Source: Escherichia coli (GTDB taxonomy: Bacteria; Pseudomonadota; Gammaproteobacteria; Enterobacterales; Enterobacteriaceae). Taken from it: a stretch of DNA of 64,000 nt. A model generated the notes under the pieces. It made no database searches, was not told the origin of the DNA, and saw only the letters and a program-made list of their open reading frames with translations. Below, piece by piece: positions 34,296 to 51,096 of the stretch (its first letter is position 1; each line of letters begins with the position of its first letter). Position numbers and translations under genes: made by a program. The stretch lies in NCBI RefSeq assembly GCF_001677475.2, contig NZ_CP015229.1; one strand, 5' to 3'.

Positions 34296-34452
34296 TAACA
34301 CGACTCCAGGGAAGAGCCGAATTCGGCAATATTATTGTCATTGTATGAAGGATATCGGGCATAGTAGCCCTGTATTAAATATTGACTTTTTCACCGATGC
34401 GTCAAGAAAAGCTGCTGAAATTTTTACGATCGGGTACATAGCGAGGGAAAGT

Positions 34453-35016
34453 ATGGAACGTTGCGGCTGGGTGAGTCAGGACCCGCTTTATATTGCCTAC
34501 CATGATAATGAATGGGGCGTGCCTGAAACTGACAGTAAAAAACTGTTCGAAATGATCTGCCTTGAAGGGCAGCAGGCTGGGTTATCGTGGATCACCGTCC
34601 TCAAAAAACGCGAAAACTATCGCGCATGCTTTCATCAGTTCGATCCGGTGAAGGTTGCCGCAATGCAGGTAGAGGATGTCGAAAGACTGGTACAGGACGC
34701 CGGGATTATCCGCCATCGCGGGAAAATTCAGGCAATCATTGGTAATGCGCGGGCGTACCTGCAAATGGAACAGAACGGCGAACCGTTTGCCGACTTTGTC
34801 TGGTCGTTTGTAAATCATCAGCCACAGGTGACACAAGCCACAACGTTGAGCGAAATCCCCACATCTACGCCCGCCTCCGACGCCCTATCTAAGGCACTGA
34901 AAAAACGTGGTTTTAAGTTTGTCGGTACCACAATCTGTTACTCCTTTATGCAGGCATGTGGGCTGGTGAATGATCATGTGGTTGGCTGCTGTTGCTATCC
35001 GGGAAATAAACCATGA
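34453..35016 (+). CDS. tag: DNA-3-methyladenine glycosylase I
   Basis: 187 aa from ATG verified at 34453 (MERCGWVSQDPLYIAYHDNEWGVP), preceded by GAGGGAAAG; the track ORF has a 79-codon spurious upstream extension. Confidence 0.93.
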   Translation: MERCGWVSQDPLYIAYHDNEWGVPETDSKKLFEMICLEGQQAGLSWITVLKKRENYRACFHQFDPVKVAAMQVEDVERLVQDAGIIRHRGKIQAIIGNARAYLQMEQNGEPFADFVWSFVNHQPQVTQATTLSEIPTSTPASDALSKALKKRGFKFVGTTICYSFMQACGLVNDHVVGCCCYPGNKP

Positions 35017-35453
35017 TTCGGGAAGCGCAACGTTCAGAACTCCCCGCGATCCTCGAACTGTGGCTGGAAAGTACAACCTGGGGGCATCCCTTTATAAAAG
35101 CGAATTACTGGCGTGATTGCATTCCGCTGGTGCGGGATGCGTATCTTGCCAATGCGCAAAACTGGGTCTGGGAAGAAGACGGTAAGCTTCTCGGTTTTGT
35201 CAGCATTATGGAAGGCCGATTTCTGGCAGCAATGTTTGTCGCACCGAAGGCCGTCAGACGCGGTATTGGTAAGGCGCTGATGCAATATGTGCAGCAGCGC
35301 CATCCCCATCTGATGCTGGAGGTTTATCAAAAAAATCAACCGGCGATAGATTTTTACCATGCGCAGGGTTTTCACATTGTCGATTGCGCATGGCAGGATG
35401 AAACCCAACTACCCACCTGGATTATGAGCTGGCCGGTGGATCAAACGCTGTAA
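35013..35453 (+). CDS. yiaC: GNAT-family N-acetyltransferase YiaC
   Basis: 146 aa; start overlaps the tag stop. Confidence 0.88.
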
Positions 35454-37755
35454 GTGTCAGTTCCGGACCGTTGTATTTTTCCAGCCATGCCAGCGCCGTA
35501 TTACCCGCACAGCCATTCCCCAGCCGCGAGCTGGGGAGATCTTTGGTCAGCACGTTCACTGCGCCGTTTTTACAAATACCGTCAGCGGTTAAATCCAGAT
35601 CCGGCCATGCCCCTTCGTGAATGCAAATCACGCCAGGTTTAATTCCCTCGCTAATGACTGCCCCGGCAAGAATTTGCCCGCGTGCGTTCCACAGCCGAAC
35701 AGTATCGCCATCTTGTATGCCGCGCGCCTGAGCATCGTCAGGATGAATGGTGACAGGCTCACGGTTTGCCACCGCGTACAATTCGCGCAGAGAACTGTAA
35801 TTCAGCTGGCTGTGCAGACGATGTGCCGGATGAGCAGAAAGTACCTGCAACTGTTCCGGTTCGGCATTGCCCTGCCATTCGTCCGGCTCCAGCCACATTG
35901 GATGCCCCGGGCAATCCGGATAAGCGTAATCAGCAATACGCTGCGAGAAGATTTCAATCTTACCACTGGCAGTTTTTAATGGATGCGCCTGCGGATCGCG
36001 GCGAAAATCGGCGAAGCGAATAAACCGCTCGCTGTCTGGGTTTTCCGGCATCTCAATTAACTGGTTGGCTTGCCAGAACTCAGCAAATGGCGGCAATTCA
36101 ACCTGCTGGCTTGCCCCGCGCTGCCGGGCAACGTTATAAAACGTTTCCAGCCATTGCAGCTCACTTTTTCCTTCCGTAAACCGCGCATAGCCGCCCTTCT
36201 CCCAACGTTCACTCAACTCGGCAAAGACATCAAAATCATTACGCGCTTCATAACGTGGCGGCACCACTTGTTTCATCAGCACCAGATGCTGATTGCTGTA
36301 ATCGCCGGTCATGGTGAGATCATTACGCTCAAACGAGGTGGTCGCAGGCAGAACGATATCCGCGTGTTTCGCCGCCGCCGTCCAGAAGCATTCAGAGATC
36401 ACCACCAGCTCCGGTTTTTGCCAGGCACGGATCAGGCGATTGGTATCCTGATGATGAGTAAAGTTGGCACCGCCCGCCCACCAGATAAAACGAATATCCG
36501 GGAAATGTCGGTCCATACCGTTATGTTGATATGCGCCACCGGGGTTTTCCAGTGCTTCAACAATGCGGGCAACAGGGATTTTATCCACCGCATCGGTGCC
36601 GCCAGGCAAGCTGCCCTGCATGGAAGAGAGCACCGCAGCGCGGCGAGTGGGGTTACCACCATTGGCAAAATGGTAAGAAAGTCCAAAACCGCCGCCGGGT
36701 GTGCCGATTTGCCCCAACATTGCCGCCAGCGTGACGATCATCCAGTGTTTTTGCTCACCAAACTGTTGGCGCTGCATTCCCCAGCCAGCCATCAGCATGG
36801 TAGTATTTTGATGGAAAAGAGCCGCCAGTTCGCGGATTTTCGCTGCGCCAACACCACAAATCCCTGCCGCCCATTCGGCGGTTTTCGCTATTCCGTCGCT
36901 CTCGCCCAGCAAATAAGAGGCGAAAACGTCATAACCTGTGGTGCAACGCGTCAGAAACGCTTCGTCGTGCCAGCCATTTTCCACCAGCGTATGGGCGATC
37001 CCTAGCATCAGCGCAACATCGGTGCCCATGTGCGGTGCCACCCACTCCATTTTATCGCCAAAGAAATCGACGGTTTCCGATCGCATTGGATCAATGCAGA
37101 TCAGCTTTTTCCCGCTGTCACGCAGTGCGGAAAAGTAAGAAAGCCCCTGCTCATCAGATGCATTCCACGCAATTTTCAGCGTATTGAGTGGGTTAGCACT
37201 CCACAACACCACGACATCGCTATGTTCCAGCACCAGCGGCCAACTGGTTTGCTGCTGATAGACTTCGCTGCCCCCCACGACATATGGCATGATCGCCTGT
37301 GCCGCGCCGGTCGAATAATCCCCCAGATGCCCGGTATAACCGCCTGCCAGCGCCATATAGCGTTGTAATAATGTCGAGGCCTTATGCAGCACGCCGTTTG
37401 AACGCCAGCCGTAGGAACCAGCAAAAATCGATGCCGGACCATAAGCCTCACGAATACGTTTATGTTGTTGGTGAATAAGCTCCAGCGCCTCATCCCAACT
37501 CACACGAACAAATTCATCCTGCCCACGAATGCCTTGCGGGTTTTCCGGTGACGCGAGAAAGCCTTTGCGCACCATTGGAAATCGTACCCGCGTATTGCTG
37601 TGAACCTGGTCGCGAACCGCGCTCTGCAAGGAATTTTCCATTCCTGTGGCTAACGCGCCACGTGAGCTAAACACGGTTTCGCCGTCAGTTTCAACCAGCA
37701 TGGGCCCCCAGTGGGCGGCAGTCAGAACGGAATATCGTGAGGATGAGTTGGCCAA
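35422..37755 (-). CDS. bisC: biotin sulfoxide reductase (molybdopterin oxidoreductase)
   Basis: 777-aa DMSO-reductase-family ORF; length and position match BisC. Confidence 0.93.
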
Positions 37756-37907
37756 ACCGAAGGCTCCTGAAAGGTTAGATGTATTGAGCAGTTAAATATT
37801 ACTTACAAATTTCCGAGTATTCCCAGGAATAATCTTCATGTTCACGCGGCATAATCTCCCGCCACGGAACCCGTGGCAAAGAATAAAAAGGTTATTAAGG
37901 ATTAACA

Positions 37908-38567
37908 ATGAAGAAACGTGTTTATCTTATTGCCGCCGTAGTGAGTGGCGCTCTGGCGGTATCTGGCTGCACAACTAACCCTTACACCGGCGAACGCGAA
38001 GCAGGTAAATCTGCTATCGGCGCAGGTCTGGGCTCTCTCGTTGGCGCGGGTATTGGTGCGCTCTCTTCTTCGAAGAAAGATCGCGGTAAAGGCGCGCTCA
38101 TTGGCGCAGCAGCAGGCGCGGCTCTGGGCGGCGGCGTGGGTTATTACATGGATGTGCAGGAAGCGAAGCTGCGTGACAAAATGCGCGGCACCGGTGTTAG
38201 CGTAACCCGCAGCGGGGATAACATTATCCTCAATATGCCGAACAATGTGACCTTCGACAGCAGCAGCGCGACCCTGAAACCGGCGGGCGCTAACACCCTG
38301 ACCGGCGTGGCAATGGTACTGAAAGAGTATCCGAAAACGGCGGTTAACGTGATTGGTTATACCGACAGCACGGGTGGTCACGACCTGAACATGCGTCTCT
38401 CCCAGCAGCGTGCGGATTCCGTTGCCAGCGCGTTGATCACCCAGGGCGTGGACGCCAGCCGCATCCGTACTCAGGGCCTTGGCCCGGCTAACCCAATCGC
38501 CAGCAACAGCACCGCAGAAGGTAAGGCGCAAAACCGCCGTGTAGAAATTACCTTAAGCCCGCTGTAA
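37908..38567 (+). CDS. yiaD: OmpA-family lipoprotein YiaD
   Basis: 219 aa with lipoprotein signal (...AVSGC), Gly-rich linker and C-terminal OmpA-like peptidoglycan-binding domain. Confidence 0.92.
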   Translation: MKKRVYLIAAVVSGALAVSGCTTNPYTGEREAGKSAIGAGLGSLVGAGIGALSSSKKDRGKGALIGAAAGAALGGGVGYYMDVQEAKLRDKMRGTGVSVTRSGDNIILNMPNNVTFDSSSATLKPAGANTLTGVAMVLKEYPKTAVNVIGYTDSTGGHDLNMRLSQQRADSVASALITQGVDASRIRTQGLGPANPIASNSTAEGKAQNRRVEITLSPL

Positions 38568-38575
38568 TCCCTTTC

Positions 38576-38615
38576 ATGCCAGGTGATGCAGAAATCACCT
38601 GGCATTCTTCAGTTT
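38576..38615 (+). terminator. yiaD terminator hairpin
   Basis: Palindrome ATGCCAGGTGAT..ATCACCTGGCAT followed by a T-rich stretch. Confidence 0.5.
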
Positions 38616-38670
38616 TCCTTCATCATATTTCAGGCTAAGGTGATCGCCTTATCAGTGAATGGAGAGAAGC

Positions 38671-39645
38671 ATGAAGCCGTCCGTTATCCTCTACAAAGCC
38701 TTACCTGATGATTTACTGCAACGCCTGCAAGAGCATTTCACCGTTCACCAGGTGGCAAACCTCAGCCCACAAACCGTCGATCAAAATGCAGCAATTTTTG
38801 CAGAAGCTGAAGGTTTACTGGGTTCAAACGAGAATGTAGATGCCGCATTGCTGGAAAAAATGCCGAAACTGCGTGCCACATCAACGATCTCCGTCGGCTA
38901 TGACAATTTTGATGTCGATGCGCTTACCGCCCGAAAAATTCTGCTGATGCACACGCCAACCGTATTAACAGAAACCGTCGCCGATACGCTGATGGCGCTG
39001 GTGTTGTCTACCGCTCGTCGGGTTGTGGAGGTAGCTGAACGGGTAAAAGCAGGCGAATGGACCGCGAGCATAGGCCCGGACTGGTACGGCACTGACGTTC
39101 ACCATAAAACACTGGGCATTGTCGGGATGGGACGGATCGGCATGGCGCTGGCACAACGTGCGCACTTTGGCTTCAACATGCCCATCCTCTATAACGCGCG
39201 CCGCCACCATAAAGAAGCAGAAGAACGCTTCAACGCCCGCTACTGCGATTTGGATACTCTGTTACAAGAGTCAGATTTCGTTTGCCTGATCCTGCCGTTA
39301 ACTGATGAGACGCATCATCTGTTTGGCGCAGAACAATTCGCCAAAATGAAATCCTCCGCCATTTTCATTAATGCCGGACGTGGCCCGGTGGTTGATGAAA
39401 ATGCACTGATTGCTGCATTGCAGAAAGGGGAAATTCACGCCGCCGGGCTGGATGTTTTCGAACAAGAGCCACTGTCCGAAGATTCGCCGTTGCTCTCAAT
39501 GACCAACGTCGTCGCAGTACCGCATATTGGATCTGCCACTCATGAGACGCGTTATGGCATGGCCGCCTGTGCCGTGGATAATTTGATTGATGCGTTACAA
39601 GGAAAGGTTGAGAAGAACTGTGTGAATCCGCACGTCGCGGACTAA
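38671..39645 (+). CDS. ghrB: glyoxylate/hydroxypyruvate reductase B (2-ketoacid reductase, D-isomer-specific 2-hydroxyacid dehydrogenase family)
   Basis: 324 aa from ATG verified at 38671 ([14 protein letters not shown]), preceded by GGAGAG; NAD-binding GxGxxG (GIVGMGRIG). Confidence 0.93.
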
Positions 39646-39663
39646 GCCGCGACTGCGTGGAGT

Positions 39664-39690
39664 AAAGCCCGATAATCGCTCGGGCTTTTA
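39664..39690. terminator. bidirectional terminator between convergent ghrB and yiaF
   Basis: Stem AAAGCCCG..CGGGCTTT flanked by A/T runs. Confidence 0.6.
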
Positions 39691-39694
39691 CTCT

Positions 39695-40405
39695 TTATTG
39701 GGTTGCAGTAACTGCTGTAGTCCAGGCCTGATTAAACGCCTGATGCTGTGCCGGTAATGGCGCAATCAGTTTGTTATATTCACTTGCCTGTTGTGACGTC
39801 GGGAACTGGATGCCATTTGCTACAAAGCTCACCTGAGTACCTTGCTGAGCAATGTAGTCTCCAACCATCACCAGTTGTTGCGTGAAAGTTTGTGCCGCCG
39901 GAATCAACGGTTGCAATGCATCAGCTGGTGTCGTTACCACTTTGGTGAATGCCTGATCAAAGACCGGTTTCAAATCATCGGTCTGTTTTAGCGCAGAGTG
40001 CGCAGCATCGGCCTGCAACTTCGCATTTTGCAGTTGTTGCGCCAGCACACCTAGCGAACCGTTCATTTCACGCAGCGGACCGCTTTGCGTAACGTAATCC
40101 TGCGGTACGCGAATTGCGTTAACGCTGTCTACGACCGGGCGCAGACCGGAATCCATCGCCTGATTCACCTGCTGAGAATAACCATACAGAATCGCGTAAT
40201 CAGAGACAAAAGGACCAAACTGTTTTTTCTGATCGGCAGTCAGGGTTGGTAGACGTTCGCCGCTACGCATCACTGTATTCTGCAGGAAGTCGATAAACGC
40301 TTTACGCTGATCGCCTTCTTTATCAAAACACCCACTCAGGCTAACTACCATTAATAACGCCGCAAGAGGCGCAAACCAGCGAGAGCAGGACTTTCCTGTC
40401 GCCAT
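39695..40405 (-). CDS. yiaF: lipoprotein YiaF
   Basis: 236 aa from ATG verified at 40405 (MATGKSCSRWFAPLAALLMVVSLSGC); lipobox present. Confidence 0.88.
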   Translation of the reverse strand: MATGKSCSRWFAPLAALLMVVSLSGCFDKEGDQRKAFIDFLQNTVMRSGERLPTLTADQKKQFGPFVSDYAILYGYSQQVNQAMDSGLRPVVDSVNAIRVPQDYVTQSGPLREMNGSLGVLAQQLQNAKLQADAAHSALKQTDDLKPVFDQAFTKVVTTPADALQPLIPAAQTFTQQLVMVGDYIAQQGTQVSFVANGIQFPTSQQASEYNKLIAPLPAQHQAFNQAWTTAVTATQ

Positions 40406-40838
40406 TTTCTTACTCCTTTCACCCAAAAAAAGCGCACAACGACACACGCGTGTCTGACGTGACAAGGATAGTCCAGGACAGGCTTGCAGGATACCCTTTC
40501 TACGTAATCTTCCTGGTAAAATCATGGAGAAAATGAAACAAGGTTAATTTGTTGTTTCATTGTTAAAAAATGATAGTGCCGTTGCTTTTTTTGTTGCCAG
40601 AGATTTACGCCTTCTCAGAACGTTAGATTTTCGAAATCTTTACAAACCGGGAGTGGTAAGAGATATATCGGCATTTATCAGATCGTTAGGTGGCTATAAG
40701 TCACGCTAAATGACTGGCTGAATCGAATCATAGCCAGAGCATGCCCTGACTTCACCCCGCTGTGTCTGCTTTTCCCGACTATTCTTAATGAGCTTCGATG
40801 CAATTCACGATCCCGCAGTGTGATTTGAGGAGTTTTCA

Positions 40839-41129
40839 ATGGAATATAAAGATCCAATGCATGAGCTGTTGAGCAGCCTGGAACAGATTGTTTTTAAAGA
40901 TGAAACGCAGAAAATTACCCTGACGCACAGAACAACGTCCTGTACCGAAATTGAGCAGTTACGAAAAGGGACAGGGTTAAAAATCGATGATTTCGCCCGG
41001 GTTTTGGGCGTATCAGTCGCCATGGTAAAGGAATGGGAATCCAGACGCGTGAAGCCTTCAAGTGCCGAACTAAAATTGATGCGTTTGATTCAAGCCAACC
41101 CGGCATTAAGTAAGCAGTTGATGGAATAG
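40839..41129 (+). CDS. yiaG: XRE-family HTH transcriptional regulator YiaG
   Basis: 96 aa with an HTH (DDFARVLGVSVAMVKEWE); HigA-antitoxin-like architecture with no adjacent toxin ORF. Confidence 0.88.
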   Translation: MEYKDPMHELLSSLEQIVFKDETQKITLTHRTTSCTEIEQLRKGTGLKIDDFARVLGVSVAMVKEWESRRVKPSSAELKLMRLIQANPALSKQLME

Positions 41130-41409
41130 ACTTTTATCCACTTTATTGCTGTTTACGGTCCTGATGACAGGACCGTTTTCCAACCGATTAATCATAAATA
41201 TGAAAAATAATTGTTGCATCACCCGCCAATGCGTGGCTTAATGCACATCAACGGTTTGACGTACAGACCATTAAAGCAGTGTAGTAAGGCAAGTCCCTTC
41301 AAGAGTTATCGTTGATACCCCTCGTAGTGCACATTCCTTTAACGCTTCAAAATCTGTAAAGCACGCCATATCGCCGAAAGGCACACTTAATTATTAAAGG
41401 TAATACACT
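41130..41409 (+). promoter_or_regulatory. cspA promoter and long 5' UTR
   Basis: 280-bp AT-rich non-coding region immediately upstream of cspA. From established knowledge this holds the cspA promoter and the long leader that acts as an RNA thermosensor; element positions not mapped here. Confidence 0.6.
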
Positions 41410-41622
41410 ATGTCCGGTAAAATGACTGGTATCGTAAAATGGTTCAACGCTGACAAAGGCTTCGGCTTCATCACTCCTGACGATGGCTCTAAAGACGTGT
41501 TCGTACACTTCTCTGCTATCCAGAACGATGGTTACAAATCTCTGGACGAAGGTCAGAAAGTGTCCTTCACCATCGAAAGCGGCGCTAAAGGCCCGGCAGC
41601 TGGTAACGTAACCAGCCTGTAA
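41410..41622 (+). CDS. cspA: major cold-shock protein CspA
   Basis: 70 aa [70 protein letters not shown], the CspA sequence. Confidence 0.98.
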
Positions 41623-41650
41623 TCTCTGCTTAAAAGCACAGAATCTAAGA

Positions 41651-41680
41651 TCCCTGCCATTTGGCGGGGATTTTTTTATT
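41651..41680 (+). terminator. cspA rho-independent terminator
   Basis: Hairpin TCCCTGCC..GGCGGGGA followed by TTTTTTT. Confidence 0.75.
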
Positions 41681-41809
41681 TGTTTTTCAGGAAATAAATA
41701 ATCGATCGCGTAGTAAAATCTATTATTATTTTTGTGAAAAATAAATTTGGGTGCAATGAGAATGCGCAACGCCGTAAGAAAGGCGGGAATAACTTCCCGC
41801 CGAAGACTC

Positions 41810-41962
41810 TTACTCTTTTAAATTGCAGGCTAAAAATGCCGCCAGCTCATAACTCCCCTGTTTAATATGCAATTCACACAGTGAATCTCTTATCATCCAG
41901 GTGAAAAATAAAAGCGTGAAACAAATCACTATTAAAGAAAGCAATCTATATTTCTGCGGCAT
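41810..41962 (-). CDS. hokA: Hok-family type I toxin (50 aa)
   Basis: ATG verified at 41962 (MPQKYRLLSLIVICFTLLFFTWMIRDSLCELHIKQGSYELAAFLACNLKE); a hairpin GGCGGGAAGTTATTCCCGCC follows the stop. Confidence 0.85.
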   Translation of the reverse strand: MPQKYRLLSLIVICFTLLFFTWMIRDSLCELHIKQGSYELAAFLACNLKE

Positions 41963-42240
41963 TCCCAGCCCCCTGTGTTGATTTCCAACGAGTAAGAGGC
42001 TAACCTTATGGTGTCTATGCATAGAGGGGCCTCACTTTGATTTATAGTCAGGTGGGGCTTTTCTCTGTCTGCCTTTCGGTGAATACCTGAGACAAACAGT
42101 CTCAAGCACCCGTGGCTATTCTAGCTTAATAAGTTTGTTTCTTCTCCTTGATATAATCCTAAAAAAATCTCATAAAATTAATATATGAGATAATCTTTAT
42201 TCAGCAGAAGATTATTAAAGGTTGCTGTATTATTTAGCGA
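41963..42240. promoter_or_regulatory. hokA upstream leader region, expected site of mok/sok elements
   Basis: 278 bp between hokA start and the glyS terminator, with a promoter-like CTTGATATAAT near 42148. By analogy with hok/sok loci an antisense Sok RNA and mok frame are expected here, but neither was positively identified. No IS sequence present. Confidence 0.45.
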
Positions 42241-42241
42241 T

Positions 42242-42272
42242 AAAAAAAGCCTGCCAGATGGCAGGCTTTTTA
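42242..42272. terminator. glyQS rho-independent terminator (bidirectional hairpin)
   Basis: AAAAAAAGCCTGCCAGATGGCAGGCTTTTT directly downstream of the glyS stop. Confidence 0.75.
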
Positions 42273-42284
42273 ATAACGGCGTTA

Positions 42285-44354
42285 TTACTGCAACAGCGAA
42301 ATATCCGCAACGCGCAGGAACAGTTCGCGCAGTTTCTCCAGCATGGTCAGACGGTTGATACGCAATTCTTTGTCATCAACCATGACCATCACTTTATCGA
42401 AGAAGGCATCGACCGGTTCACGCAGCTCTGCCAGTTCGACCAGCGCATCCTGGTAACGACCTTCCGCAAAGTACGGCTCCAGCTTGTCACGTAGCACCAC
42501 AACCTGCATCGCCAGTTTAATTTCTTCCGGCTCTTTCAGAGTAGAGGCATTCACGCGATCGCTCAGCACTTCGTCAGATTTCGCCAGGATGTTAGATACA
42601 CGTTTGTTCGCCGCCGCCAGTGCTGCAGCTGCTTCCAGGGTACGGAAGTGCGATACCGCTTTCATGCGGGCATCGAAATCAGCCGGACGAGTCGGACGAC
42701 GCGCCAGTACCGCCTGGATGGTGTCAACGGTATAACCTTCGTCCTGATACCAGGCGCGGAAGCGACCGAGCATAAAGTCGATAACATCATCAACTACGTT
42801 GGCATTAGTCAGCTTATCGCCATACAGACGCACCGCTTCTTCGGTCAGCGTTTGCAGATCAAGGTTGAGGTTCTTCTCAACGATAATTCGCAGCACGCCA
42901 AGTGCGGCACGACGCAGCGCAAACGGGTCTTTGTCGCCTTTCGGATGCTGACCGATACCGAAGATACCCGCCAGAGTATCCATCTTATCAGCAATCGCCA
43001 GCGCACAAGCTACCGGGTTGGACGGCAGGTCATCACCGGCAAAGCGCGGCTGATACTGCTCATTCAGCGCGACGGCTACGTCTTCCGCTTCGCCATCGTG
43101 ACGCGCGTAGTGCATCCCCATAACGCCTTGGGTGTCGGTGAACTCGAAGACCATGTTGGTCATCAGGTCACACTTAGACAGCAGGCCCGCACGGGTTGCG
43201 TGGTTAACGTCAGCGCCAATCTGTTCGGCGATCCAGCCAGCCAGCGCCTGGATGCGGTCAGTCTTGTCACGCAGCGTACCCAGCTGTTGCTGGAACAGCA
43301 CGGTTTGCAGGCGCGGCAGGTTATCTTCCAGACGTTTTTTACGGTCGGTGTTGAAGAAGAACTCGGCATCAGCCAGACGTGGACGAACGACTTTCTCGTT
43401 ACCAGAGATAATTTGCTGCGGATCTTTCGATTCGATGTTGGCAACGAAGATAAAGTTCGGCAGCAGTTTGCCGTCGTTCGCATACACCGGGAAGTATTTC
43501 TGGTCACCTTTCATGGTGTAAACCAGCGCTTCAGACGGCACCGCGAGGAATTTCTCTTCGAATTTCGCGGTCAGAACGACCGGCCACTCCACCAGCGAAG
43601 CGACTTCTTCCAGCAGGCTTTCGCTTAAGTCAGCGTTACCGCCAATCTTACGCGCTGCTTCTTCGGCATCGGCTTTAATCTTCGCCTTACGTTCTTCGTA
43701 ATCGGCGATGACTTTCCCGCGCTCACGCAGAATTTCTGGATATTGATCGGCGTTGTCGATAGTGAATTCCGGCTCGCCCATAAAGCGGTGGCCGCGAATC
43801 ACGCGATCGGACTGAATGCCCAGAATGGTTGCCGGAATGACTTTGTCGCCCAGCAGCAGGGTCACGGTGTGCACCGGACGCACGAAGTGCACGTCGCTTG
43901 CACCCCAGCGCATCAGTTTCGGGATCGGCAGTTTCGCCAGCGAAGTCGCAACCATATTCGGCAGCAGTGCTTCAGTGCTTTCGCCCTTCACATGGGCGCG
44001 ATACAGCAGCCATTCGCCTTTATCGGTAGTCAGACGCTCAGCCTGGTCAACGGTAATACCGCAACCACGCGCCCAACCTTCTGCCGCTTTGCTCGGTTTG
44101 CCTTCAGCGTCGAACGCCTGGGCAATCGCCGGGCCGCGTTTTTCGATTTCACGATCCGGTTGCGCTTCCGCCAGGTTAGCTACTTTCAGCGCCAGACGAC
44201 GCGGAGCAGCAAACCATTGAACGGTGCCGTGTGCGAGGCCAGCGTTATCCAGCTCCGCAGTAAAGTTCGCAGCAAAGGACTCAGCCAGGCTGCGCAGTGC
44301 TTTTGGTGGCAGCTCTTCAGTGCCGATTTCCACCAGAAAAGTTTTCTCAGACAT
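42285..44354 (-). CDS. glyS: glycine--tRNA ligase beta subunit
   Basis: 689-aa ORF immediately downstream of glyQ; length and sequence match GlyS. Confidence 0.96.
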
Positions 44355-44363
44355 AGCCGCCTC

Positions 44364-45275
44364 TTACTTATCTTTGTTGCACATCGGGAAGCCGAGGGCT
44401 TCACGGGAAGCGTAGTATGCTTCTGCCACTGCTTTGGTCAGGGTGCGAATGCGCAGAATGTAGCGCTGACGCTCGGTGACGGAGATGGCTTTACGCGCAT
44501 CCAGCAGGTTGAAGCTGTGGGCGGCTTTCAGAATACGCTCGTAGGCTGGCAGCGGCAGCGGATTTTCCAGCGCCAGCAACTGCTGCGCTTCTTTCTCGTA
44601 TTGCTCGAAGCAGGTGAACAGGAAATCCACATCCGCGTATTCGAAGTTGTAAGTGGACTGCTCCACTTCGTTCTGATGGAACACGTCGCCGTAGGTGGTT
44701 TTACCCAGCGGGCCGTCGCTCCAGACCAGGTCGTAAACGCTGTCTACGCCCTGAATGTACATGGCCAGACGTTCCAGACCGTAAGTGATCTCGCCGGTAA
44801 CCGGTTTACACTCCAGACCACCAACCTGCTGGAAGTAAGTGAACTGCGTCACTTCCATGCCGTTTAGCCACACTTCCCAGCCCAGCCCCCAGGCACCCAG
44901 CGTCGGGTTTTCCCAGTTATCTTCCACGAAACGGATGTCGTGAATAGTCGGGTCCATGCCCAGCTCTTTCAGAGAACCGAGGTACAGCTCCTGAATATTG
45001 TCCGGCGATGGCTTAATGACCACCTGGAACTGATAGTAGTGCTGTAAACGGTTGGGGTTTTCGCCGTAGCGACCATCGGTCGGGCGACGAGAAGGCTGAA
45101 CATAAGCAGCCGCCATCGGTTCTGGCCCCAGCGCGCGCAGACAGGTCATTGGGTGAGAGGTTCCCGCGCCGACTTCCATGTCCAATGGTTGAACAATGGT
45201 GCAGCCCTGGCGAGCCCAGTAATCCTGTAAGGTCAGGATCAAGCCCTGGAAGGTCCTGGTATCAAACTTTTGCAT
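44364..45275 (-). CDS. glyQ: glycine--tRNA ligase alpha subunit
   Basis: 303-aa [28 protein letters not shown], the GlyQ sequence. Confidence 0.96.
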
Positions 45276-45369
45276 ATTATTTCGTGCTGGATACGTGTGG
45301 ATTTAAAGGAAGGGATCAGTATACCCGCTGGATGGAAGATATACAGTACGAAACGGGAAAAAGCAGGGC

Positions 45370-45678
45370 TTAACGCATGGAAAGATGCAAAAAATGGCCA
45401 TCTGCGTCAAAAGAACAGACAAACTGCTCTTTACGGAAGGTATAACCGCGCATTTCGTAGCTTCCCTGGAACTGTTCAAATGCGGTGACGTCGATTTTTT
45501 GCTCGCCGGTGTTATAACGTTTCGCCGCCTGATCCTTGCATAACGCTTCCATATTCAACGAACGCAGAGGATCAACCTTTACCCGTTGTGCTTTCTGCAC
45601 GGGTGACGGTGTAGAACAACCCACTAGCACCATAAGCGCCATAAGCGCCATTGCCGGAAAGAAAGAGTTCATCATCAT
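45370..45678 (-). CDS. ysaB: small lipoprotein YsaB
   Basis: About 100 aa with lipoprotein signal (...LVGCSTP); exact start among three adjacent Met codons uncertain. Confidence 0.8.
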   Translation of the reverse strand: MMMNSFFPAMALMALMVLVGCSTPSPVQKAQRVKVDPLRSLNMEALCKDQAAKRYNTGEQKIDVTAFEQFQGSYEMRGYTFRKEQFVCSFDADGHFLHLSMR

Positions 45679-45852
45679 TAAATTACCGTCTGGTTTGCAG
45701 GTGAGTCTTATTATTTATATCGGTATAGTGGCTGATATCTTACGAACTTCCTTAAGCCTCTATAAGCTGTAGTGATAAAACTCAGATTATTCCAGTGCGC
45801 CAACTGAATGATTTATCGGTCAGACTTTTTTTAACCAGATACAGAGACACAG

Positions 45853-46848
45853 ATGCAGCCCAAAATTTACTGGATTGATAACCTGCGAGGGATAGCGTGT
45901 TTAATGGTGGTGATGATTCACACCACTACCTGGTATGTGACCAATGCTCATAGTGTTAGCCCCGTCTCCTGGGATATCGCCAATGTTCTGAACTCTGCCT
46001 CTCGTGTCAGCGTGCCGCTATTTTTCATGATTTCCGGCTATCTCTTTTTTGGCGAACGCAGCGCCCAGCCGCGCCATTTCTTGCGTATCGGCTTATGTCT
46101 GTTTTTTTATAGCGCAATCGCGCTGCTCTACATTGCACTGTTTACCTCCATTAATGTGGAGTTAGCGCTGAAAAACCTGCTGCAAAAGCCAGTGTTTTAC
46201 CACTTATGGTTTTTCTTCGCGATTGCGGTGATTTATCTGGTTTCACCGTTGATTCAGGTGAAGAACGTCGGCGGAAAAATGTTGCTGGTGCTAATGGTGG
46301 TGATTGGTATCATCGCTAACCCAAACACCGTGCCGCAGAAAATCGACGGTTTTGAATGGCTGCCAATTAACTTATATATCAATGGCGATACTTTTTACTA
46401 CATCCTGTATGGCATGTTGGGCCGAGCTATAGGAATGATGGACACACAGCATAAAGCACTGTCGTGGGTGAGCGCCGCACTGTTTGCAACGGGGGTTTTT
46501 ATTATCTCTCGCGGGACATTATATGAATTGCAGTGGCGCGGAAATTTTGCCGATACCTGGTATCTTTACTGTGGGCCGATGGTTTTTATCTGCGCAATCG
46601 CGCTATTGACTCTGGTTAAAAACACGCTGGATACGCGTACCATTCGCGGACTTGGCTTAATCTCCCGCCATTCGTTGGGTATATACGGATTCCACGCCTT
46701 GATTATCCATGCGCTGCGCACCCGGGGAATTGAGCTTAAAAATTGGCCAATACTGGATATTATTTGGATCTTTTGCGCGACGTTGGCAGCGAGTTTGTTA
46801 CTTTCTATGCTGGTACAACGAATCGACAGAAACAGATTAGTGAGTTAA
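45853..46848 (+). CDS. wecH: membrane O-acetyltransferase WecH (YiaH), acyltransferase-3 family
   Basis: 331-aa polytopic membrane protein; position between ysaB and yiaA. Confidence 0.9.
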
Positions 46849-46849
46849 G

Positions 46850-46882
46850 TAAAAGCCCGGTCACATTGGACTGACCGGGCTT
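46850..46882. terminator. bidirectional terminator between convergent wecH and yiaA
   Basis: Stem AAGCCCGGTCA..TGACCGGGCTT. Confidence 0.65.
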
Positions 46883-46889
46883 ACGTGAG

Positions 46890-47330
46890 TTATTCGCTGT
46901 ATTCTTCCGGGGTAACCTGTGTTTCTTTTGGTGGGTTTATTCCGGCATCACGAATATTTTTCTGCACCGCTACTGCACCAAACAAGCTTAAGAAGAAAGC
47001 CAGTCCATAAAAACCTTTTTCGCTGAGTAATAATGTCGCATTCCACAGACCTACCATCAGTAATGCAACAGAGATAATAAAGACAGTCAGGCAGGTCATA
47101 TAATAAATGGAAGTGGTCGGTATGCCTTCATACTTGTCCCGAACGGTCTTTTGATAAGACGCCGCAGAAAACAGTCCTAATACCAGTACGGCAAAATAAT
47201 ATCCTTTTTCATTTAACTGCATCTCTGCATTCCATAGCCCTAACAGATAGGTAACGATACCACCAACGAGAGCTATCCATGACACAATACTAAAGGCCGG
47301 TGAATAGGTTGATATTTTGTTGTCCATCAC
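46890..47330 (-). CDS. yiaA: inner-membrane protein YiaA
   Basis: 146 aa with four hydrophobic helices; paralogous to the adjacent yiaB. Confidence 0.85.
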
Positions 47331-47372
47331 AGTATTCCTTTCATTCCTGAATGTGTAAGAGCTTTATGTTGC

Positions 47373-47714
47373 TCATGCCGAGCGAAACAAACGCATTTGA
47401 CCAAACAAGCAGACAAAAAAGGCGATGGGATAGATCACCATTTCATAAGCATTGATAGGTGCATTTAAAACACCGATAAACAAGAGACCGATAGTGATTA
47501 ACGCAACTAACTGGCAAATATGGATAAAAAAATCATCCAGTTGCCCGAGTTTTTCTGCGCGAAGATATGCATAGTTGCCAAAAGTTGCCGTCATTAACAC
47601 GCCAAGAAAATAGCCTTTTCCACTTAACAATGGGCATGAGATCCATAGCCCAACCAGATAAACCAGCGCCCCGACAACAAATAATAGTTTTGCCACAGTC
47701 TTTGAGGTTTTCAT
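47373..47714 (-). CDS. yiaB: inner-membrane protein YiaB
   Basis: 113 aa from ATG verified at 47714 (MKTSKTVAKLLFVVGALVYL); YiaA/YiaB family. Confidence 0.85.
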   Translation of the reverse strand: MKTSKTVAKLLFVVGALVYLVGLWISCPLLSGKGYFLGVLMTATFGNYAYLRAEKLGQLDDFFIHICQLVALITIGLLFIGVLNAPINAYEMVIYPIAFFVCLFGQMRLFRSA

Positions 47715-47882
47715 AACGATCTCCATATCTACCAGCGATACATTACGAGTAACCAACGAAAGACAAAACTGAAAAATGCCATTAACAAATGATTTTCAGA
47801 ATAAATTCATACTAAATATTAATTAATTACTGAGATGTATAGATGTGAATTATCCCCCACCCGGTCAGGCAGGGGATAACGT

Positions 47883-49337
47883 TTACGCCATTAATGGCAG
47901 AAGTTGCTGATAGAGGCGACGGAACGTTTCTCGTCGTGGCTGATAAGCGGCATAACGCTGCGCATCAGGTAGATGCGACTGTTCTAACGGTAGCTGCGGC
48001 AACAACTCAATGAGCGATTTCTCTGGATTCGCCGCAATCTGCGCCAGCCTTGCTGCGCCCAGTGCTGGCCCCACATCCCCCCCCGTACGGTAATCGAGCT
48101 GCTGACCGCTGATATCCGCCAGCATCTGACGCCAGTACTCACTACGCGCCCCGCCACCAATCAACGTAACACTTTGCGGTTTAATGCCGCAGGCATGCAC
48201 GACATCCATGCCATCTGCCAGCGCATAACCCACGCCTTCCAGCACTGCTCGCGCCAGTTCATTGGGGCCATGTTGATGAGTCAAACCAAAGAAAACCCCC
48301 TTCGCCTGGGGATTATTGTGTGGTGTACGCTCGCCGGAAAGATAAGGCAGAAACCAAACTGGCTCGGCACTTTCATCAGCCTGTTGAGCAGCCGCGATTA
48401 AAGCTGGGACATTGTTCAGGCCCGTTAATTTCGCGGCCCAATCCAGACACGACGCTGCACTCAGCATTACAGACATTAAATGCCAACGCTGCGGTAGCGC
48501 ATGGCAAAAGCTGTGTACGGCGCTTTCTGGCTTGCTTAAAAACCCTTCGCTAACAGCAAAATAGACCCCCGACGTCCCCAGCGATAACATTGCCTGATTA
48601 GCATCAACCATTCCCACACCAACCGCACCAGCTGCATTGTCGCCACCGCCTGCGACAACTGGCACCGTCGCCATCCCCCACGCTTTCGCAACTTCAGGTA
48701 ACAAAGCACCAGTAATTTCGCTGCCTTCGTATAATGCGGGCATCTGGTCACGAGATAAGTGGCAAGCCTGCAGCATGACGTCACTCCAGTCACGCTTTGC
48801 GACATCCAGCCACATGGTGCCAGCTGCGTCAGACATATCGCTGGCAAACTCCCCCGTCATACGCAGACGCAAGTAATCTTTCGGTAATAATACTTTGTCG
48901 ATTTGACGGAATATCTCCGGCTCATGCCGCTGAACCCATAGCAATTTAGGCGCAGTAAATCCGGGCATCATCAGGTTGCCGGTAATCACCCGCGATTGCG
49001 GAACTCGCGCTTCCAGCAAAGTGCACTCTTGCGCACAGCGCCCGTCGTTCCACAAAATGGCAGGGCGCAATACCCGTTGTTGAGCATCCAGTAAGGTTGC
49101 ACCGTGCATCTGGCCGGCAATACCCAATGCTTTAACGTCCTGCAGAGAATGCTGATCGCCCAGGGCTTTCATTGCGCGATCAGTTGCCTGCCACCACTGT
49201 TCCGGGTCTTGTTCCGACCAGAGTGGATGCGGGCGCGAAACGGTCAGCTTTTCCGTTTGCGAAGCAACCACCTCACCCTGCTCGTTGAGCAAAATAACTT
49301 TTACGCCCGAGGTGCCAAGATCTATCCCGATATACAT
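47883..49337 (-). CDS. xylB: xylulokinase
   Basis: 484-aa FGGY-family sugar kinase (MYIGIDLGTSGVKV) downstream of xylA. Confidence 0.96.
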   Translation of the reverse strand: MYIGIDLGTSGVKVILLNEQGEVVASQTEKLTVSRPHPLWSEQDPEQWWQATDRAMKALGDQHSLQDVKALGIAGQMHGATLLDAQQRVLRPAILWNDGRCAQECTLLEARVPQSRVITGNLMMPGFTAPKLLWVQRHEPEIFRQIDKVLLPKDYLRLRMTGEFASDMSDAAGTMWLDVAKRDWSDVMLQACHLSRDQMPALYEGSEITGALLPEVAKAWGMATVPVVAGGGDNAAGAVGVGMVDANQAMLSLGTSGVYFAVSEGFLSKPESAVHSFCHALPQRWHLMSVMLSAASCLDWAAKLTGLNNVPALIAAAQQADESAEPVWFLPYLSGERTPHNNPQAKGVFFGLTHQHGPNELARAVLEGVGYALADGMDVVHACGIKPQSVTLIGGGARSEYWRQMLADISGQQLDYRTGGDVGPALGAARLAQIAANPEKSLIELLPQLPLEQSHLPDAQRYAAYQPRRETFRRLYQQLLPLMA

Positions 49338-49351
49338 ATCGATCGTTCCTT

Positions 49352-49386
49352 AAAAAAATGCCCGGTATCGCTACCGATAACCGGGC
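49352..49386 (-). promoter_or_regulatory. intercistronic stem-loop between xylA and xylB
   Basis: Hairpin GCCCGGTATCG..CGATAACCGGGC in the 71-bp xylA-xylB spacer. Confidence 0.4.
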
Positions 49387-49408
49387 CAACGGACTGCACA
49401 GTTAGCCG

Positions 49409-50731
49409 TTATTTGTCGAACAGATAATGGTTTACCAGATTTTCCAGTTGTTCCTGGCGACCACTCTGATGCACCGGAGACAAATTGTGTTCCTGAGCAT
49501 ATTTGGCTAAATCTGCCAGTGACATTTGGCCTTTCAGGATTTGCTGGCCTAATTCGCTATTCCAGCCGGAATAACGCTGCGCGATGCGTTTATCCAGCTC
49601 GCCATCTTCAATCATGCGTGCTGCAATTTTCAGCGCCAACGCCATCGTATCCATCGCGCCGATATGACCGTAAAACAGATCATATTTATCAGTACTTTGA
49701 CGACGTACTTTGGCATCGAAGTTCAGACCACCGGTGGTGAAACCGCCTGCTTTGAGAATTTCATACATCACCAGCGCATTCTCTTCCACACTGTTCGGGA
49801 ACTGGTCGGTGTCCCAGCCCAGTTGCGCATCGCCACGGTTGGCGTCGACAGAACCGAACAGGCCAAGCGCAATGGCGGTGGCTATTTCATGATGGAAAGA
49901 GTGACCTGCCAGCGTCGCGTGGTTAGCTTCAATGTTCAGTTTAATCTCTTTTTCCAGACCAAACTGTTTCAGGAAGCCATAGACCGTCGCGGCATCGTAA
50001 TCATATTGATGTTTGGTCGGTTCTTGCGGTTTCGGTTCGATAAGCAACGTGCCCTGGAAACCGATTTTATGTTTATGCTCAACCACCATCTGCATAAAGC
50101 GGCCCAGCTGTTCACGCTCCTGACGCAAGTCGGTATTTAACAGCGTTTCGTAACCTTCACGACCGCCCCACAGGACATAGTTTTCACCGCCCAATTTATG
50201 GGTTGCTTCCATCGCTGTAACAACTTGCGTTGCCGCCCAACTGAAGACTTCAGGATCTGGGTTCGTCGCCGCACCCGCGCCATAGCGAGGGTTTGTAAAG
50301 CAGTTAGCGGTTCCCCACAGCAGCTTCACGCCGCTCTCTTCTTGCTTGCCTGCCAGGACATCAACCATTTGCGCAAAATTATTGATGTACTCTTTTAACG
50401 ACGCGCCCTCAGGGGAAACATCCACATCGTGGAAGCAATAAAATGGCACATGTAACTTGTGGAAAAACTCAAATGCGACATCTGCTTTACGCTTCGCCAA
50501 CGCCAGTGCCTCACCAGGCTGCTGCCACGGACGATTAAACGCCCCCACACCAAACATGTCCGCTCCGTTCCAGCAGAAGGTGTGCCAGTAGCAGGCGGCA
50601 AAACGCAAGTGCTCTTCCATACGCTTACCCAACACCAGTTCGTCGGGATTGTAGTGACGGAATGCTAACGGGTTTGAGGATTTTGAGCCTTCATAACGAA
50701 CGCGATCGAGCTGGTCAAAATAGGCTTGCAT
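49409..50731 (-). CDS. xylA: xylose isomerase
   Basis: 440 aa from ATG verified at 50731 ([16 protein letters not shown]). Confidence 0.97.
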
Positions 50732-51096
50732 ATTGAACTCCATAATAAGGTAATGCCGCGGGTAATGGATGATGTCCTAATATTGGGCACTCCCTTTCAG
50801 TTGCTCAATTATGTTATTTCACACTGCTATTGAGATAATTCACAAGTGTGCGCTCGCTCGCAAAATAAAATGGGATGATGAAACTGGGTAATTCCTCGAA
50901 GAGAAAAATGCAATAAGTACAATTGCGCAACAAAAGTAAGATCTCTGTCATAAATCAAGAAATAAACCAAAAATCGTAATCGAAAGATAAAAATCTGTAA
51001 TTGTTTTCCCCTGTTTAGTTGCTAAAAATTGGTTACGTTTATCGCGGTGATTGTTACTTATTAAAGCTGTCCTCTAACTACAGAAGGCCCTACACC
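50732..51096. promoter_or_regulatory. divergent xylAB / xylFGH promoter region
   Basis: 365-bp AT-rich region between divergent xylA and xylF. From established knowledge it carries XylR and CRP sites; individual sites not mapped. Confidence 0.6.

What the first reader, a model, noticed from the sequence alone, without database searches (positions are those of the whole stretch)
41623..42284. hokA locus without IS150 between hokA and glyS
The hokA toxin ORF is intact and only about 320 bp of non-coding sequence separate it from the glyS terminator. In K-12 I recall IS150 (insJ/insK) inserted between hokA and glyS, which is thought to inactivate the locus. Here the upstream leader is uninterrupted, so this hok/sok-type module may be functional. 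The Sok antisense RNA and mok frame are inferred by analogy, not identified.
Basis: partly seen in the sequence, partly recalled or inferred. Interest (0 to 1): 0.4.

Follow-up and report, generated by a model that had tools for sequence, protein, structure and literature searches.

The report
Intact hokA toxin–antitoxin locus, no IS150
This is an ordinary, complete copy of the E. coli hokA/sokA toxin–antisense RNA module in its insertion-free form, a form carried by about half of sequenced E. coli and first described in 1999.

Summary
Window 41623-42284 is the whole cspA–glyS intergenic region. It holds an intact 50-codon hokA on the minus strand (41962..41810). No IS150 end occurs anywhere in the 64 kb.

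- the hokA promoter -10 and the mRNA start
- the tac, ucb and fbi folding elements
- the mokA ribosome-binding site and start codon, 20 codons upstream and in frame with hokA
- the plus-strand SokA promoter, hairpin and U-tract

The leader matches Rfam sok (RF01794) end to end at 120 bits. Folding predictions reproduce the published hok switch from a closed full-length mRNA to an open truncated one.

In K-12, IS150 does not lie simply "between hokA and glyS". It sits inside the leader and replaces 39 bp (41995-42033), which carry the mokA initiation site and the SokA -10 and 5' end.

The insertion-free state is common: 2830 of 5425 complete E. coli genomes. It also occurs in E. coli C, whose HokA protein is identical. 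Published work found that the E. coli C locus gives neither plasmid stabilisation nor rifampicin-induced killing.

Verdict: real, correctly read, already known, low interest. As a side observation, IS150 repeatedly occupies the homologous nucleotides of paralogous hok loci.

The parts
42118..42123 (-). Putative hokA promoter -10 box, TAGAAT, 6 nt upstream of the inferred mRNA start.
   Evidence: Read from the sequence. It aligns with TATGAT in front of the R1-type hok mRNA start. No good -35 box is present, and the generic promoter scan did not call it. Promoter activity is inferred.
41960..42111 (-). hokA mRNA 5' leader, from the inferred +1 (GGGUGCUUGAG) to the hokA AUG.
   Evidence: Full-length match (model positions 1-157) to Rfam RF01794 'sok' at 120.2 bits against a gathering score of 59, E = 3e-28.
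42100..42111 (-). tac element, the first 12 nt of the mRNA (GGGUGCUUGAGA).
   Evidence: In the full-length fold it pairs with fbi at probability 1.00. In the 3'-truncated fold it pairs with ucb at probability about 0.43.
42053..42058 (-). ucb / anti-SD (GCCCCA, mRNA nt 54-59).
   Evidence: It pairs with the mokA SD region (nt 78-83) in the full-length fold and with tac in the truncated fold. This matches the mechanism described in PMC9841398.
42020..42033 (-). mokA translation initiation region: SD GAGG (42033-42030), a 7-nt spacer, then ATG (42022-42020).
   Evidence: Read from the sequence. The SD-to-AUG spacing is the same as GAGGCAUCCCUAUG in the R1-type locus.
41810..42022 (-). mokA frame of 70 codons. 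Here it is in frame with hokA, giving the 20-residue extension MHRHHKVSLLLVGNQHRGLG followed by HokA.
   Evidence: In B2-type alleles (L020, L023) a 1-nt deletion puts mokA out of frame, yielding a 29-codon ORF.
41810..41962 (-). hokA coding sequence, 50 aa, with Cys14, Cys29 and Cys46. The SD is GGGGG at 41973-41969.
   Evidence: The protein is 100% identical to WP_001135738.1, as found in E. coli C, AR_0019 and strain 100181. It differs from K-12 HokA at 2 residues.
41978..42006 (+). SokA promoter: -35 TTGATT (41978-41983), a 17-nt spacer, then -10 TAACCT (42001-42006).
   Evidence: It aligns position for position with the R1-type promoter (TTGCGC, 17 nt, TATCCT) and the IncHI2-type promoter (TTGCAT, 17 nt, TACGCT). 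It is invariant in all 9 hokA alleles that retain this segment (K-12 lacks 41995-42033 and the E. albertii contig ends at 41977). The generic consensus scan does not call it. Activity is inferred.
42012..42069 (+). SokA antisense RNA, about 55 nt with approximate ends. It has a 5' single-stranded tail over the mokA AUG, a hairpin at 42030-42057, and the U-rich tract CUUUUCUCU.
   Evidence: The fold gives -25 kcal/mol with z = -3.7. It is the complement of the conserved leader hairpin in the Rfam model. A reported 52-nt target length for hokA is consistent with this (PMC3562002).
41782..41801 (-). GC-rich hairpin just after the hokA stop codon (GGCGGGAAGUUAUUCCCGCC). It probably protects the 3' end of the processed mRNA.
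   Evidence: A homologous hairpin follows hok in the R1-type and IncHI2-type loci. Its role is inferred from PMC9841398.
41749..41761 (-). fbi element (UCUCAUUGCACCC).
   Evidence: It pairs with nt 1-6 and 8-12 of the mRNA in the minimum-free-energy and ensemble folds. Changes across paralogs are compensatory: hokA GGGUGC/GCACCC, R1 GGCGC/GCGCC, IncHI2 GGUGC/GCACC.
41649..41677 (.). cspA terminator hairpin, shared by the convergent transcripts and the likely end point of full-length hokA mRNA.
   Evidence: No other GC-rich terminator follows fbi. Its use by hokA is inferred.
41995..42037 (.). Unoccupied IS150 target region. The 39 bp at 41995-42033 are replaced by IS150 in K-12. CTT at 42035-42037 is the target duplication of the second, oppositely oriented IS150 allele.
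   Evidence: Junction alignments and genome counts. The window has a single CTT and no footprint.
42244..42271 (-). glyS terminator, which bounds the locus. It is not part of the module.
   Evidence: Read from the sequence. The sub-threshold Rfam hits here (STnc370 and leader families) reflect only this hairpin.

Best explanation
The region is a complete chromosomal hokA/mokA/sokA type I toxin–antitoxin locus in its ancestral, insertion-free form.

It most likely works as the hok/sok paradigm does:
1. A weak constitutive promoter makes a long, stable hokA mRNA.
2. The mRNA's first 12 nt (tac) pair with fbi near the 3' end. In this closed form ucb masks the mokA ribosome-binding site.
3. Slow 3' trimming removes fbi. 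tac then pairs with ucb, which exposes the mokA initiation site.
4. hokA translation is coupled to mokA translation, because the hokA SD and AUG stay base-paired in both forms.
5. The short SokA RNA, made from the opposite strand, pairs across the mokA initiation region of the opened mRNA. This blocks translation and marks the duplex for RNase III.
6. If HokA is made, it damages the inner membrane.

What is shown here: the sequence elements, their homology and conservation, and the predicted alternative folds. What is inferred: transcription, processing, Sok action, and any physiological role.
For: - **Protein family.** HokA matches Pfam HOK_GEF and the NCBIfam HokA equivalog.
- **Leader.** It gives a full-length Rfam RF01794 match at 120 bits.
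- **Full-length fold.** It closes through tac/fbi with pair probability 1.00 and pairs ucb with the mokA SD. Stability is z = -6.9 for 372 nt and -8.6 for 472 nt.
- **Truncated fold.** tac switches to ucb, as described for R1 hok in PMC9841398.
- **tac/fbi complementarity.** It is kept by compensatory changes across three paralogous loci.
- **SokA.** Its promoter aligns with those of the R1 and IncHI2 loci. Its hairpin and U-tract fold at -25 kcal/mol.
- **Position.** The synteny cspA–hokA–glyS is the same as in E. coli.
- **Ancestral state.** The region is uninterrupted in 2830 of 5425 E. coli genomes, in E. coli C and in Escherichia sp. E1V33. The window carries a single CTT and no duplication footprint.
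Against: - No expression data exist for this sequence.
- A generic sigma-70 scan calls neither the hokA nor the SokA promoter.
- The hokA SD here is GGGGG, where K-12 and B2 alleles have GGAGG.
- No dedicated terminator follows fbi, so the 3' end of the mRNA is uncertain.
- Published tests of the closely related E. coli C locus found no post-segregational killing and no rifampicin activation.
- The locus is often disrupted in nature. IS150 interrupts it in about 48% of E. coli. Escherichia sp. E1V33 has a frameshift. Klebsiella spallanzanii keeps only a 5'-truncated remnant.
Confidence: 0.9

Rival explanations
1. The locus looks intact but is a functionally silent relic. It may be transcribed, but it never produces enough HokA to matter, and it drifts neutrally until an IS element or a frameshift destroys it.
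For: - The IS-free E. coli C hokA gave no post-segregational killing and no rifampicin-induced killing.
- About half of E. coli genomes carry IS150 in the leader.
- Escherichia sp. E1V33 has a frameshifted hokA.
- E. whittamii has a 4.3-kb metabolic cassette in place of hokA.
- The hokA SD is weaker here, GGGGG rather than GGAGG.
Against: - Every regulatory element is preserved, and the alternative folds are strongly supported, with z near -7.
- The SokA promoter and leader core are invariant in all 9 alleles that retain them, including a different species.
- HokA is toxic when over-expressed (bioRxiv 10.1101/2025.08.07.668861).
- Repeated IS150 disruption in evolution experiments has been read as loss of a costly function (PMC5419217).
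Confidence: 0.35
2. The IS-free state is derived. An IS150 once sat here and was precisely excised, so the leader was restored secondarily.
For: A sokE::IS150 allele has been seen to revert to sokE+ in the laboratory (PMC11551753). IS150 insertions with the window's own haplotype exist in other strains (H80).
Against: - The window has a single CTT and no footprint.
- The K-12-type allele has lost 39 bp and cannot revert.
- Escherichia sp. E1V33 is uninterrupted.
- No IS150 is present in the 64-kb window.
Confidence: 0.05
3. The roughly 320 bp upstream of hokA hold some other element, such as an independent sRNA or leader like STnc370, and not only the hok/sok leader.
For: Permissive Rfam hits to STnc370 (41 bits), Phe and Trp leaders and istR cluster at 42182-42384. 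An AT-rich hairpin followed by T7 lies at 42161-42191 on the minus strand.
Against: All these hits fall below their gathering scores and overlap the glyS terminator hairpin at 42244-42271, which explains them. Nothing in this stretch passes the gathering thresholds.
Confidence: 0.05

Closest known systems
hokA/sokA of Escherichia coli C (IS-free allele studied by Pedersen & Gerdes 1999; genome NZ_CP020543.1, 346016-346676)
   Same: - Same position, between cspA and glyS.
- No IS element.
- Identical HokA protein, WP_001135738.1.
- Same hokA -10 box, tac, ucb, fbi, SokA promoter and hairpin.
- 644 of 662 positions identical.
   Different: There are 18 differences. Six are clustered at 42015-42028, in mokA codons 2-3, the SD–AUG spacer and the SokA 5' tail. 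One indel plus one substitution lie just 5' of fbi. The remainder are one synonymous change in the hokA coding sequence (41942) and changes in AT-rich flanks.
hokA of E. coli K-12 (b4455) with IS150 (insJK)
   Same: Same locus and flanks, with 97-99% identity outside the insertion.
   Different: In K-12, IS150 replaces window-equivalent 41995-42033. This removes the mokA SD and AUG and the SokA -10 and 5' end, and it separates the hokA coding sequence from its promoter and tac/ucb. K-12 HokA differs at residues 36 (E for G) and 47 (K for N). This allele occurs in 1663 complete genomes.
hok/mok/sok of plasmid R1 and F-like plasmids
   Same: - Same order of elements: -10 box, tac, ucb, Sok hairpin, mok SD/AUG, Sok promoter, hok, 3' hairpin, fbi.
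- Same spacings for the mok SD–AUG and for the Sok -35/-10 boxes.
- Same predicted closed-to-open switch.
   Different: - Hok is only about 40% identical.
- R1 mok is out of frame with hok, whereas here mokA is in frame.
- R1 has its own GC-rich terminator after fbi, whereas hokA appears to rely on the cspA terminator.
- R1 mediates plasmid stabilisation, which chromosomal hokA did not.

Membership tests
Hok/Gef toxin family, HokA orthologue group | A toxin of about 50 aa that matches the family profile. | tested here: met
   Pfam PF01848 at 83.2 bits (cut-off 22). NCBIfam NF007290 HokA equivalog at 131.9 bits (cut-off 89).
Hok/Gef toxin family, HokA orthologue group | Cys29 and Cys46, the disulfide pair needed for toxicity, are encoded directly. 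| tested here: met
   The translated sequence has C14, C29 and C46. The requirement itself is taken from bioRxiv 10.1101/2025.08.07.668861.
[quoted passage not shown] | Conserved hok mRNA leader in sequence and structure. | tested here: met
   Rfam RF01794 at 120.2 bits against a gathering score of 59, covering model positions 1-157 of 157.
[quoted passage not shown] | An overlapping mok frame with its own SD upstream of hok. | tested here: met
   GAGG, 7 nt, then ATG at 42033-42020. The ORF runs through hokA.
[quoted passage not shown] | Long-range tac/fbi closure of the full-length mRNA, with a switch to tac/ucb after 3' trimming. | tested here: met
   Predicted folds and pair probabilities, plus compensatory tac/fbi changes across paralogs. 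This is prediction only; no probing data exist.
[quoted passage not shown] | A cis-encoded Sok antisense RNA with its own promoter and terminator, opposite the mok initiation region. | tested here: inconclusive
   The hairpin and U-tract are predicted. The promoter boxes align with those of the R1 and IncHI2 loci and are invariant among the 9 alleles that retain them. The generic promoter scan does not call them, and no transcript data are available.
[quoted passage not shown] | Differential RNA stability, 3' processing, and killing when Sok decays. | not testable with these tools
   This needs Northern blots, a rifampicin chase and plasmid-loss assays. The related E. coli C allele is reported negative for post-segregational killing.
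IS150-disrupted hokA alleles (K-12 type or AR_0019/ST131 type) | IS150 terminal repeats within the hokA leader. | tested here: not met
   No IS150 end in the window with up to 3 mismatches. The leader is contiguous.

The most novel reading that the evidence does not exclude
The stretch at 42030-42040 holds the complement of the mokA SD and the 5' arm of the SokA terminator hairpin. It may be a sequence- or structure-specific landing site for IS150, and not merely a place where insertions are tolerated or selected. On this reading the window shows the unoccupied site of an IS that preferentially disarms hok-family toxins on both chromosomes and plasmids.

Support:
- IS150 sits right after GCCTC(A/G) in chromosomal hokA, in R1-type plasmid hok and in IncHI2 plasmid hok, with different 3-bp target duplications.
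- A further insertion lies 1 nt away in K-12, in the opposite orientation.
- A 100-bp R1-type hok|IS150 junction query is covered at 80% or more in 1617 plasmid records, counting similar junctions down to about 87% identity in other hok paralogs.

Recurrent IS150 hits in hok/sok loci are already reported (PMC5419217, PMC11551753). Only the claim of true target specificity would be new.
Probability: 0.4. Interest if true: 0.4.

Novelty: already known. Interest (0 to 1): 0.12.

Why it matters
It matters little as a discovery. The insertion-free hokA/sokA locus has been known since 1999, is annotated routinely, and is present in roughly half of complete E. coli genomes.

Its practical value is as a clean reference. 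The window gives base-level coordinates for every regulatory element of an undisrupted chromosomal hok locus. It also shows what K-12 lacks: the mokA start site and the SokA promoter -10 and 5' end. This is useful for anyone using K-12 as the model for chromosomal hok genes.

The recurrent, position-specific IS150 insertions may deserve a dedicated look.

Tried and rejected
- **Generic promoter scan.** It found only one unrelated promoter-like site and missed both the hokA and SokA promoters. I assigned them by homology instead.
- **Permissive Rfam hits at 42182-42384.** STnc370, Phe and Trp leaders, istR and rnk are all below threshold and reflect the glyS terminator. Rejected.
- **Primary literature.** Pedersen & Gerdes 1999 and Woods et al. 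2006 are not held. I relied on later papers that summarise them. My recollection that IS150 hit hokB/sokB in the long-term evolution experiment is therefore memory only.
- **Paper searches.** The search for hokA/sokA/mokA returned mostly irrelevant papers. The search for IS150 plus hokB returned nothing.
- **Non-E. coli source.** A 24-kb query gave at most 96.9% identity to any complete E. coli genome. However, direct comparison gives 98.2% to E. coli C over 18 kb and 99.2% to strain 100181 over 3.7 kb. The source is therefore E. coli-like. The discrepancy was not resolved.
- **Origin of the clustered substitutions at 42015-42028.** I considered a hairpin-templated mutation, because they create a perfect palindrome. 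Both arms changed, so a simple templated correction does not fit. Gene conversion from a paralog was not tested.
- **IS150 end resembling its target.** The resemblance between GGGGTCAGTACA and GGGGCCTCACTT needs a gap and is weak, so I make no claim.

Full report

Yes. Window 41623-42284 is exactly the intergenic region between cspA and glyS. cspA occupies 41410-41622 on the plus strand, and its whole mRNA matches the Rfam cspA thermoregulator at 41250-41677. glyS lies on the minus strand with its stop codon at 42285-42287.

The minus strand carries an uninterrupted 50-codon ORF from ATG 41962-41960 to TAA 41812-41810. It encodes MPQKYRLLSLIVICFTLLFFTWMIRDSLCELHIKQGSYELAAFLACNLKE. The protein matches Pfam HOK_GEF at 83 bits against a cut-off of 22. 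It matches the NCBIfam HokA equivalog at 131.9 bits against a cut-off of 89.

The hokA ATG is 322 bp from the glyS stop codon. No IS150 terminal repeat occurs anywhere in the 64 kb, even with three mismatches allowed. K-12 does carry IS150 between hokA and glyS.

**2. Anatomy of the locus**

*Leader.* The leader from 42111 to 41960 (minus strand) matches Rfam RF01794 over the whole model, positions 1-157. The score is 120 bits against a gathering score of 59. Despite its name 'sok', this model is written on the hok strand. It runs from the mRNA start (GGGUGCUUGAG) to the hok AUG.

*hokA promoter.* A -10 box, TAGAAT (42123-42118), lies 6 nt upstream of that start. It aligns with TATGAT in the R1-type locus.

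*mokA.* A GAGG ribosome-binding site (42033-42030) is followed after 7 nt by ATG at 42022-42020. The spacing is the same as in R1 (GAGGCAUCCCUAUG). The frame continues through hokA, so here mokA is an in-frame 20-residue extension of HokA.

*SokA.* On the plus strand, TTGATT (41978-41983), a 17-nt spacer and TAACCT (42001-42006) align position for position with the Sok promoters of two plasmid loci. The R1-type has TTGCGC, 17 nt, TATCCT. The IncHI2-type has TTGCAT, 17 nt, TACGCT. Downstream come a single-stranded stretch over the mokA AUG, a hairpin (42030-57) and CUUUUCUCU. This RNA folds at -25 kcal/mol with z = -3.7. SokA is therefore about 55 nt, roughly 42012-42066. That agrees with a reported 52-nt target (PMC3562002).

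*3' region.* After the hokA stop codon come a GC-rich hairpin (41801-41782) and the fbi element UCUCAUUGCACCC (41761-41749). No dedicated terminator follows fbi. The next one is the cspA terminator (41649-41677), which hokA probably shares. That last point is inferred.

**3. How it most likely works**

PMC9841398 summarises the established model for R1 hok:
- A full-length mRNA is closed by a tac/fbi stem, and ucb masks the mok SD.
- Slow 3' trimming removes fbi.
- tac then pairs with ucb, which frees the mok SD for ribosomes and for Sok.
- The Sok duplex is cut by RNase III.

Folding predictions for the window's sequence reproduce both states.
- *Full-length RNA (372 nt; -139.4 kcal/mol, z = -6.9).* Nucleotides 1-6 and 8-12 pair with fbi at probability 1.00. 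ucb (nt 54-59) pairs with the mokA SD region (nt 78-83).
- *Truncated RNA (ending at 41776).* Nucleotides 1-8 pair with ucb (nt 52-58) at probability about 0.43, and the SD is partly released.
- *Longer RNA (472 nt, ending at the cspA terminator).* tac/fbi is kept, with z = -8.6.
- *Both forms.* The hokA SD and AUG stay paired with codons further downstream, which fits translation coupled to mokA.

tac/fbi complementarity is kept by compensatory changes across paralogs. hokA has GGGUGC/GCACCC, R1 has GGCGC/GCGCC, and IncHI2 has GGUGC/GCACC.

These results are predictions plus homology. Transcription, processing and killing were not and cannot be shown here.

**4. Where IS150 sits in K-12, and how common the empty site is**

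Alignment with K-12 shows that IS150 (1443 bp) replaces window-equivalent 41995-42033. The missing 39 bp hold the mokA SD and AUG, the first mokA codons, and the SokA -10 box and 5' end. The insertion also separates the hokA coding sequence from its promoter, tac and ucb. IS150 is therefore inside the regulatory leader, not merely between two genes. PMC11551753 likewise states that sokA of MG1655 is disrupted by IS150.

A second allele, found in AR_0019 and ST131, has IS150 in the opposite orientation. It is a simple insertion with target duplication CTT, equivalent to 42035-42037.

Among 5425 complete E. coli genomes that have the locus:

| State | Genomes | Source |
|---|---|---|
| At least 80% of the 662 bp in one piece | 2830 | |
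| The 80-bp core 41985-42064 in one piece | 2800 | |
| K-12-type junction | 1663 | |
| Remainder, about 930, which fits the second allele | ~930 | |

A few genomes carry other insertions, for example IS200C in H16.

The empty state is also seen in Escherichia sp. E1V33, at 95.9% identity over the whole region. The window has one CTT and no footprint. The IS-free form is therefore the ancestral and majority state.

**5. Comparison with the allele that was tested experimentally**

E. coli C (NZ_CP020543.1) has the same IS-free arrangement and an identical HokA protein. Its 661-bp intergenic region differs from the window at 18 positions. Six are clustered at 42015-42028. Two lie just 5' of fbi. 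One (41942) is a synonymous change in the hokA coding sequence, and the rest lie in AT-rich flanks.

According to bioRxiv 10.1101/2025.08.07.668861, Pedersen & Gerdes (1999) found that hokA of E. coli C could not mediate post-segregational killing and was not activated by rifampicin. They suggested that chromosomal hok loci are inactive. HokA itself is toxic when over-expressed. I could not read the 1999 paper directly.

So 'may be functional' is supported only in the sense that nothing in the sequence is broken.

**6. Variation worth noting**

The window's haplotype at 42015-42028 changes mokA codons 2-3 from Pro-Glu to His-Arg. It also creates a perfect 12-nt palindrome, TCTATGCATAGA (42014-42025). 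Because Sok is encoded in cis, target and antisense change together.

By my estimate from the identity bands:
- About 545 genomes carry the window's exact 80-bp core uninterrupted.
- About 330 more differ from it by one base.
- About 1900 carry the other haplotype.

The hokA SD is polymorphic, GGGGG here against GGAGG in K-12 and B2 strains. B2-type alleles also have a 1-nt deletion that puts mokA out of frame, a weaker -10 box (TGGAAT) and a mismatch in fbi. None of this is unusual enough to change the verdict.

**7. Side observation: IS150 and hok loci**

IS150 lies at the homologous nucleotides of paralogous loci:
- after GCCTCA[CTT] in hokA
- after GCCTCG[TGG] in an R1-type plasmid hok
- after GCCTCG[GGT] in an IncHI2 plasmid hok
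- 11 bp further on in another R1-type copy

In all four the same IS end faces hok. K-12 has the opposite orientation, 1 nt away.

A 100-bp R1-hok|IS150 junction is covered at 80% or more in 1617 plasmid records. The hokA insertion occurs on both leader haplotypes.

The literature already reports recurrent IS150 insertions. They were seen next to hokC, hokE and mokB in evolution experiments (PMC5419217). sokE::IS150 was found in more than 400 isolates (PMC11551753). Whether this reflects target preference or selection remains open.

**8. Verdict**

This is a correctly spotted, fully canonical and already known locus. Interest is low.

Noticed in passing
window 42030-42040; loci L002, L023, L004, L028, L029, L030, L001: IS150 occupies the homologous position, just after GCCTC(A/G) in the 5' arm of the Sok terminator hairpin. 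This holds in chromosomal hokA and in two different plasmid hok families, with different 3-bp target duplications. K-12 has an insertion 1 nt away in the opposite orientation. A 100-bp R1-type hok|IS150 junction query is covered at 80% or more in 1617 plasmid records. The pattern looks like a hot spot.
   Followed up: partly
window 42014-42028: Six clustered substitutions relative to E. coli C, B2 strains and Escherichia sp. E1V33 change mokA codons 2-3 and the SokA 5' tail. They create a perfect 12-nt palindrome, TCTATGCATAGA. Both haplotypes are common in E. coli. The origin, whether gene conversion or templated mutation, was not determined.
   Followed up: partly
window 41963-41973; L020, L023: The hokA Shine-Dalgarno is polymorphic: GGGGG here, GGAGG in K-12, B2 strains and E1V33. 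B2-type alleles also have a 1-nt deletion before the hokA ATG. That puts mokA out of frame, giving a 29-codon ORF, whereas here mokA is an in-frame extension of HokA.
   Followed up: partly
window 41756-41821 (+): A small plus-strand ORF overlaps the hokA 3' end and corresponds to K-12 ysaE. Here it stops 4 codons earlier, because the hokA Leu48 codon TTA creates TAA on the opposite strand.
   Followed up: no
window 15379-15444 and 15862-15927 (+): There are two rdlD antitoxin RNA matches 483 bp apart. E. coli C has a single ldrD/rdlD copy here, and its segment aligns twice to the window. This indicates a tandem duplication of this other type I toxin–antitoxin module.
   Followed up: partly
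window 42161-42191 (-): An AT-rich hairpin (AUCUCAUA...UAUGAGAU) followed by seven U lies between the glyS terminator and the hokA promoter. It may be a second terminator or insulator against glyS read-through. It is conserved in all alleles aligned.
   Followed up: no
L015 2460-6783; L018 5560-5800; L014; L005: The cspA–glyS gap varies across relatives. E. whittamii has a 4.3-kb cassette instead of hokA, encoding a LysR regulator, an aldo-keto reductase, a short-chain dehydrogenase and other proteins (these labels are my reading of the ORF translations; no family search was run on them). Klebsiella spallanzanii keeps a 5'-truncated hokA-like remnant with an fbi-like end. Escherichia sp. E1V33 has a frameshifted hokA. 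The E. albertii contig breaks inside the leader.
   Followed up: partly
window 30000-54000: A 24-kb megablast query reported at most 96.9% identity to any complete E. coli genome. Direct comparison gives 98.2% to E. coli C over 33607-51617. Part of the flanks may be unusually divergent, or the tool's averaging may differ.
   Followed up: no
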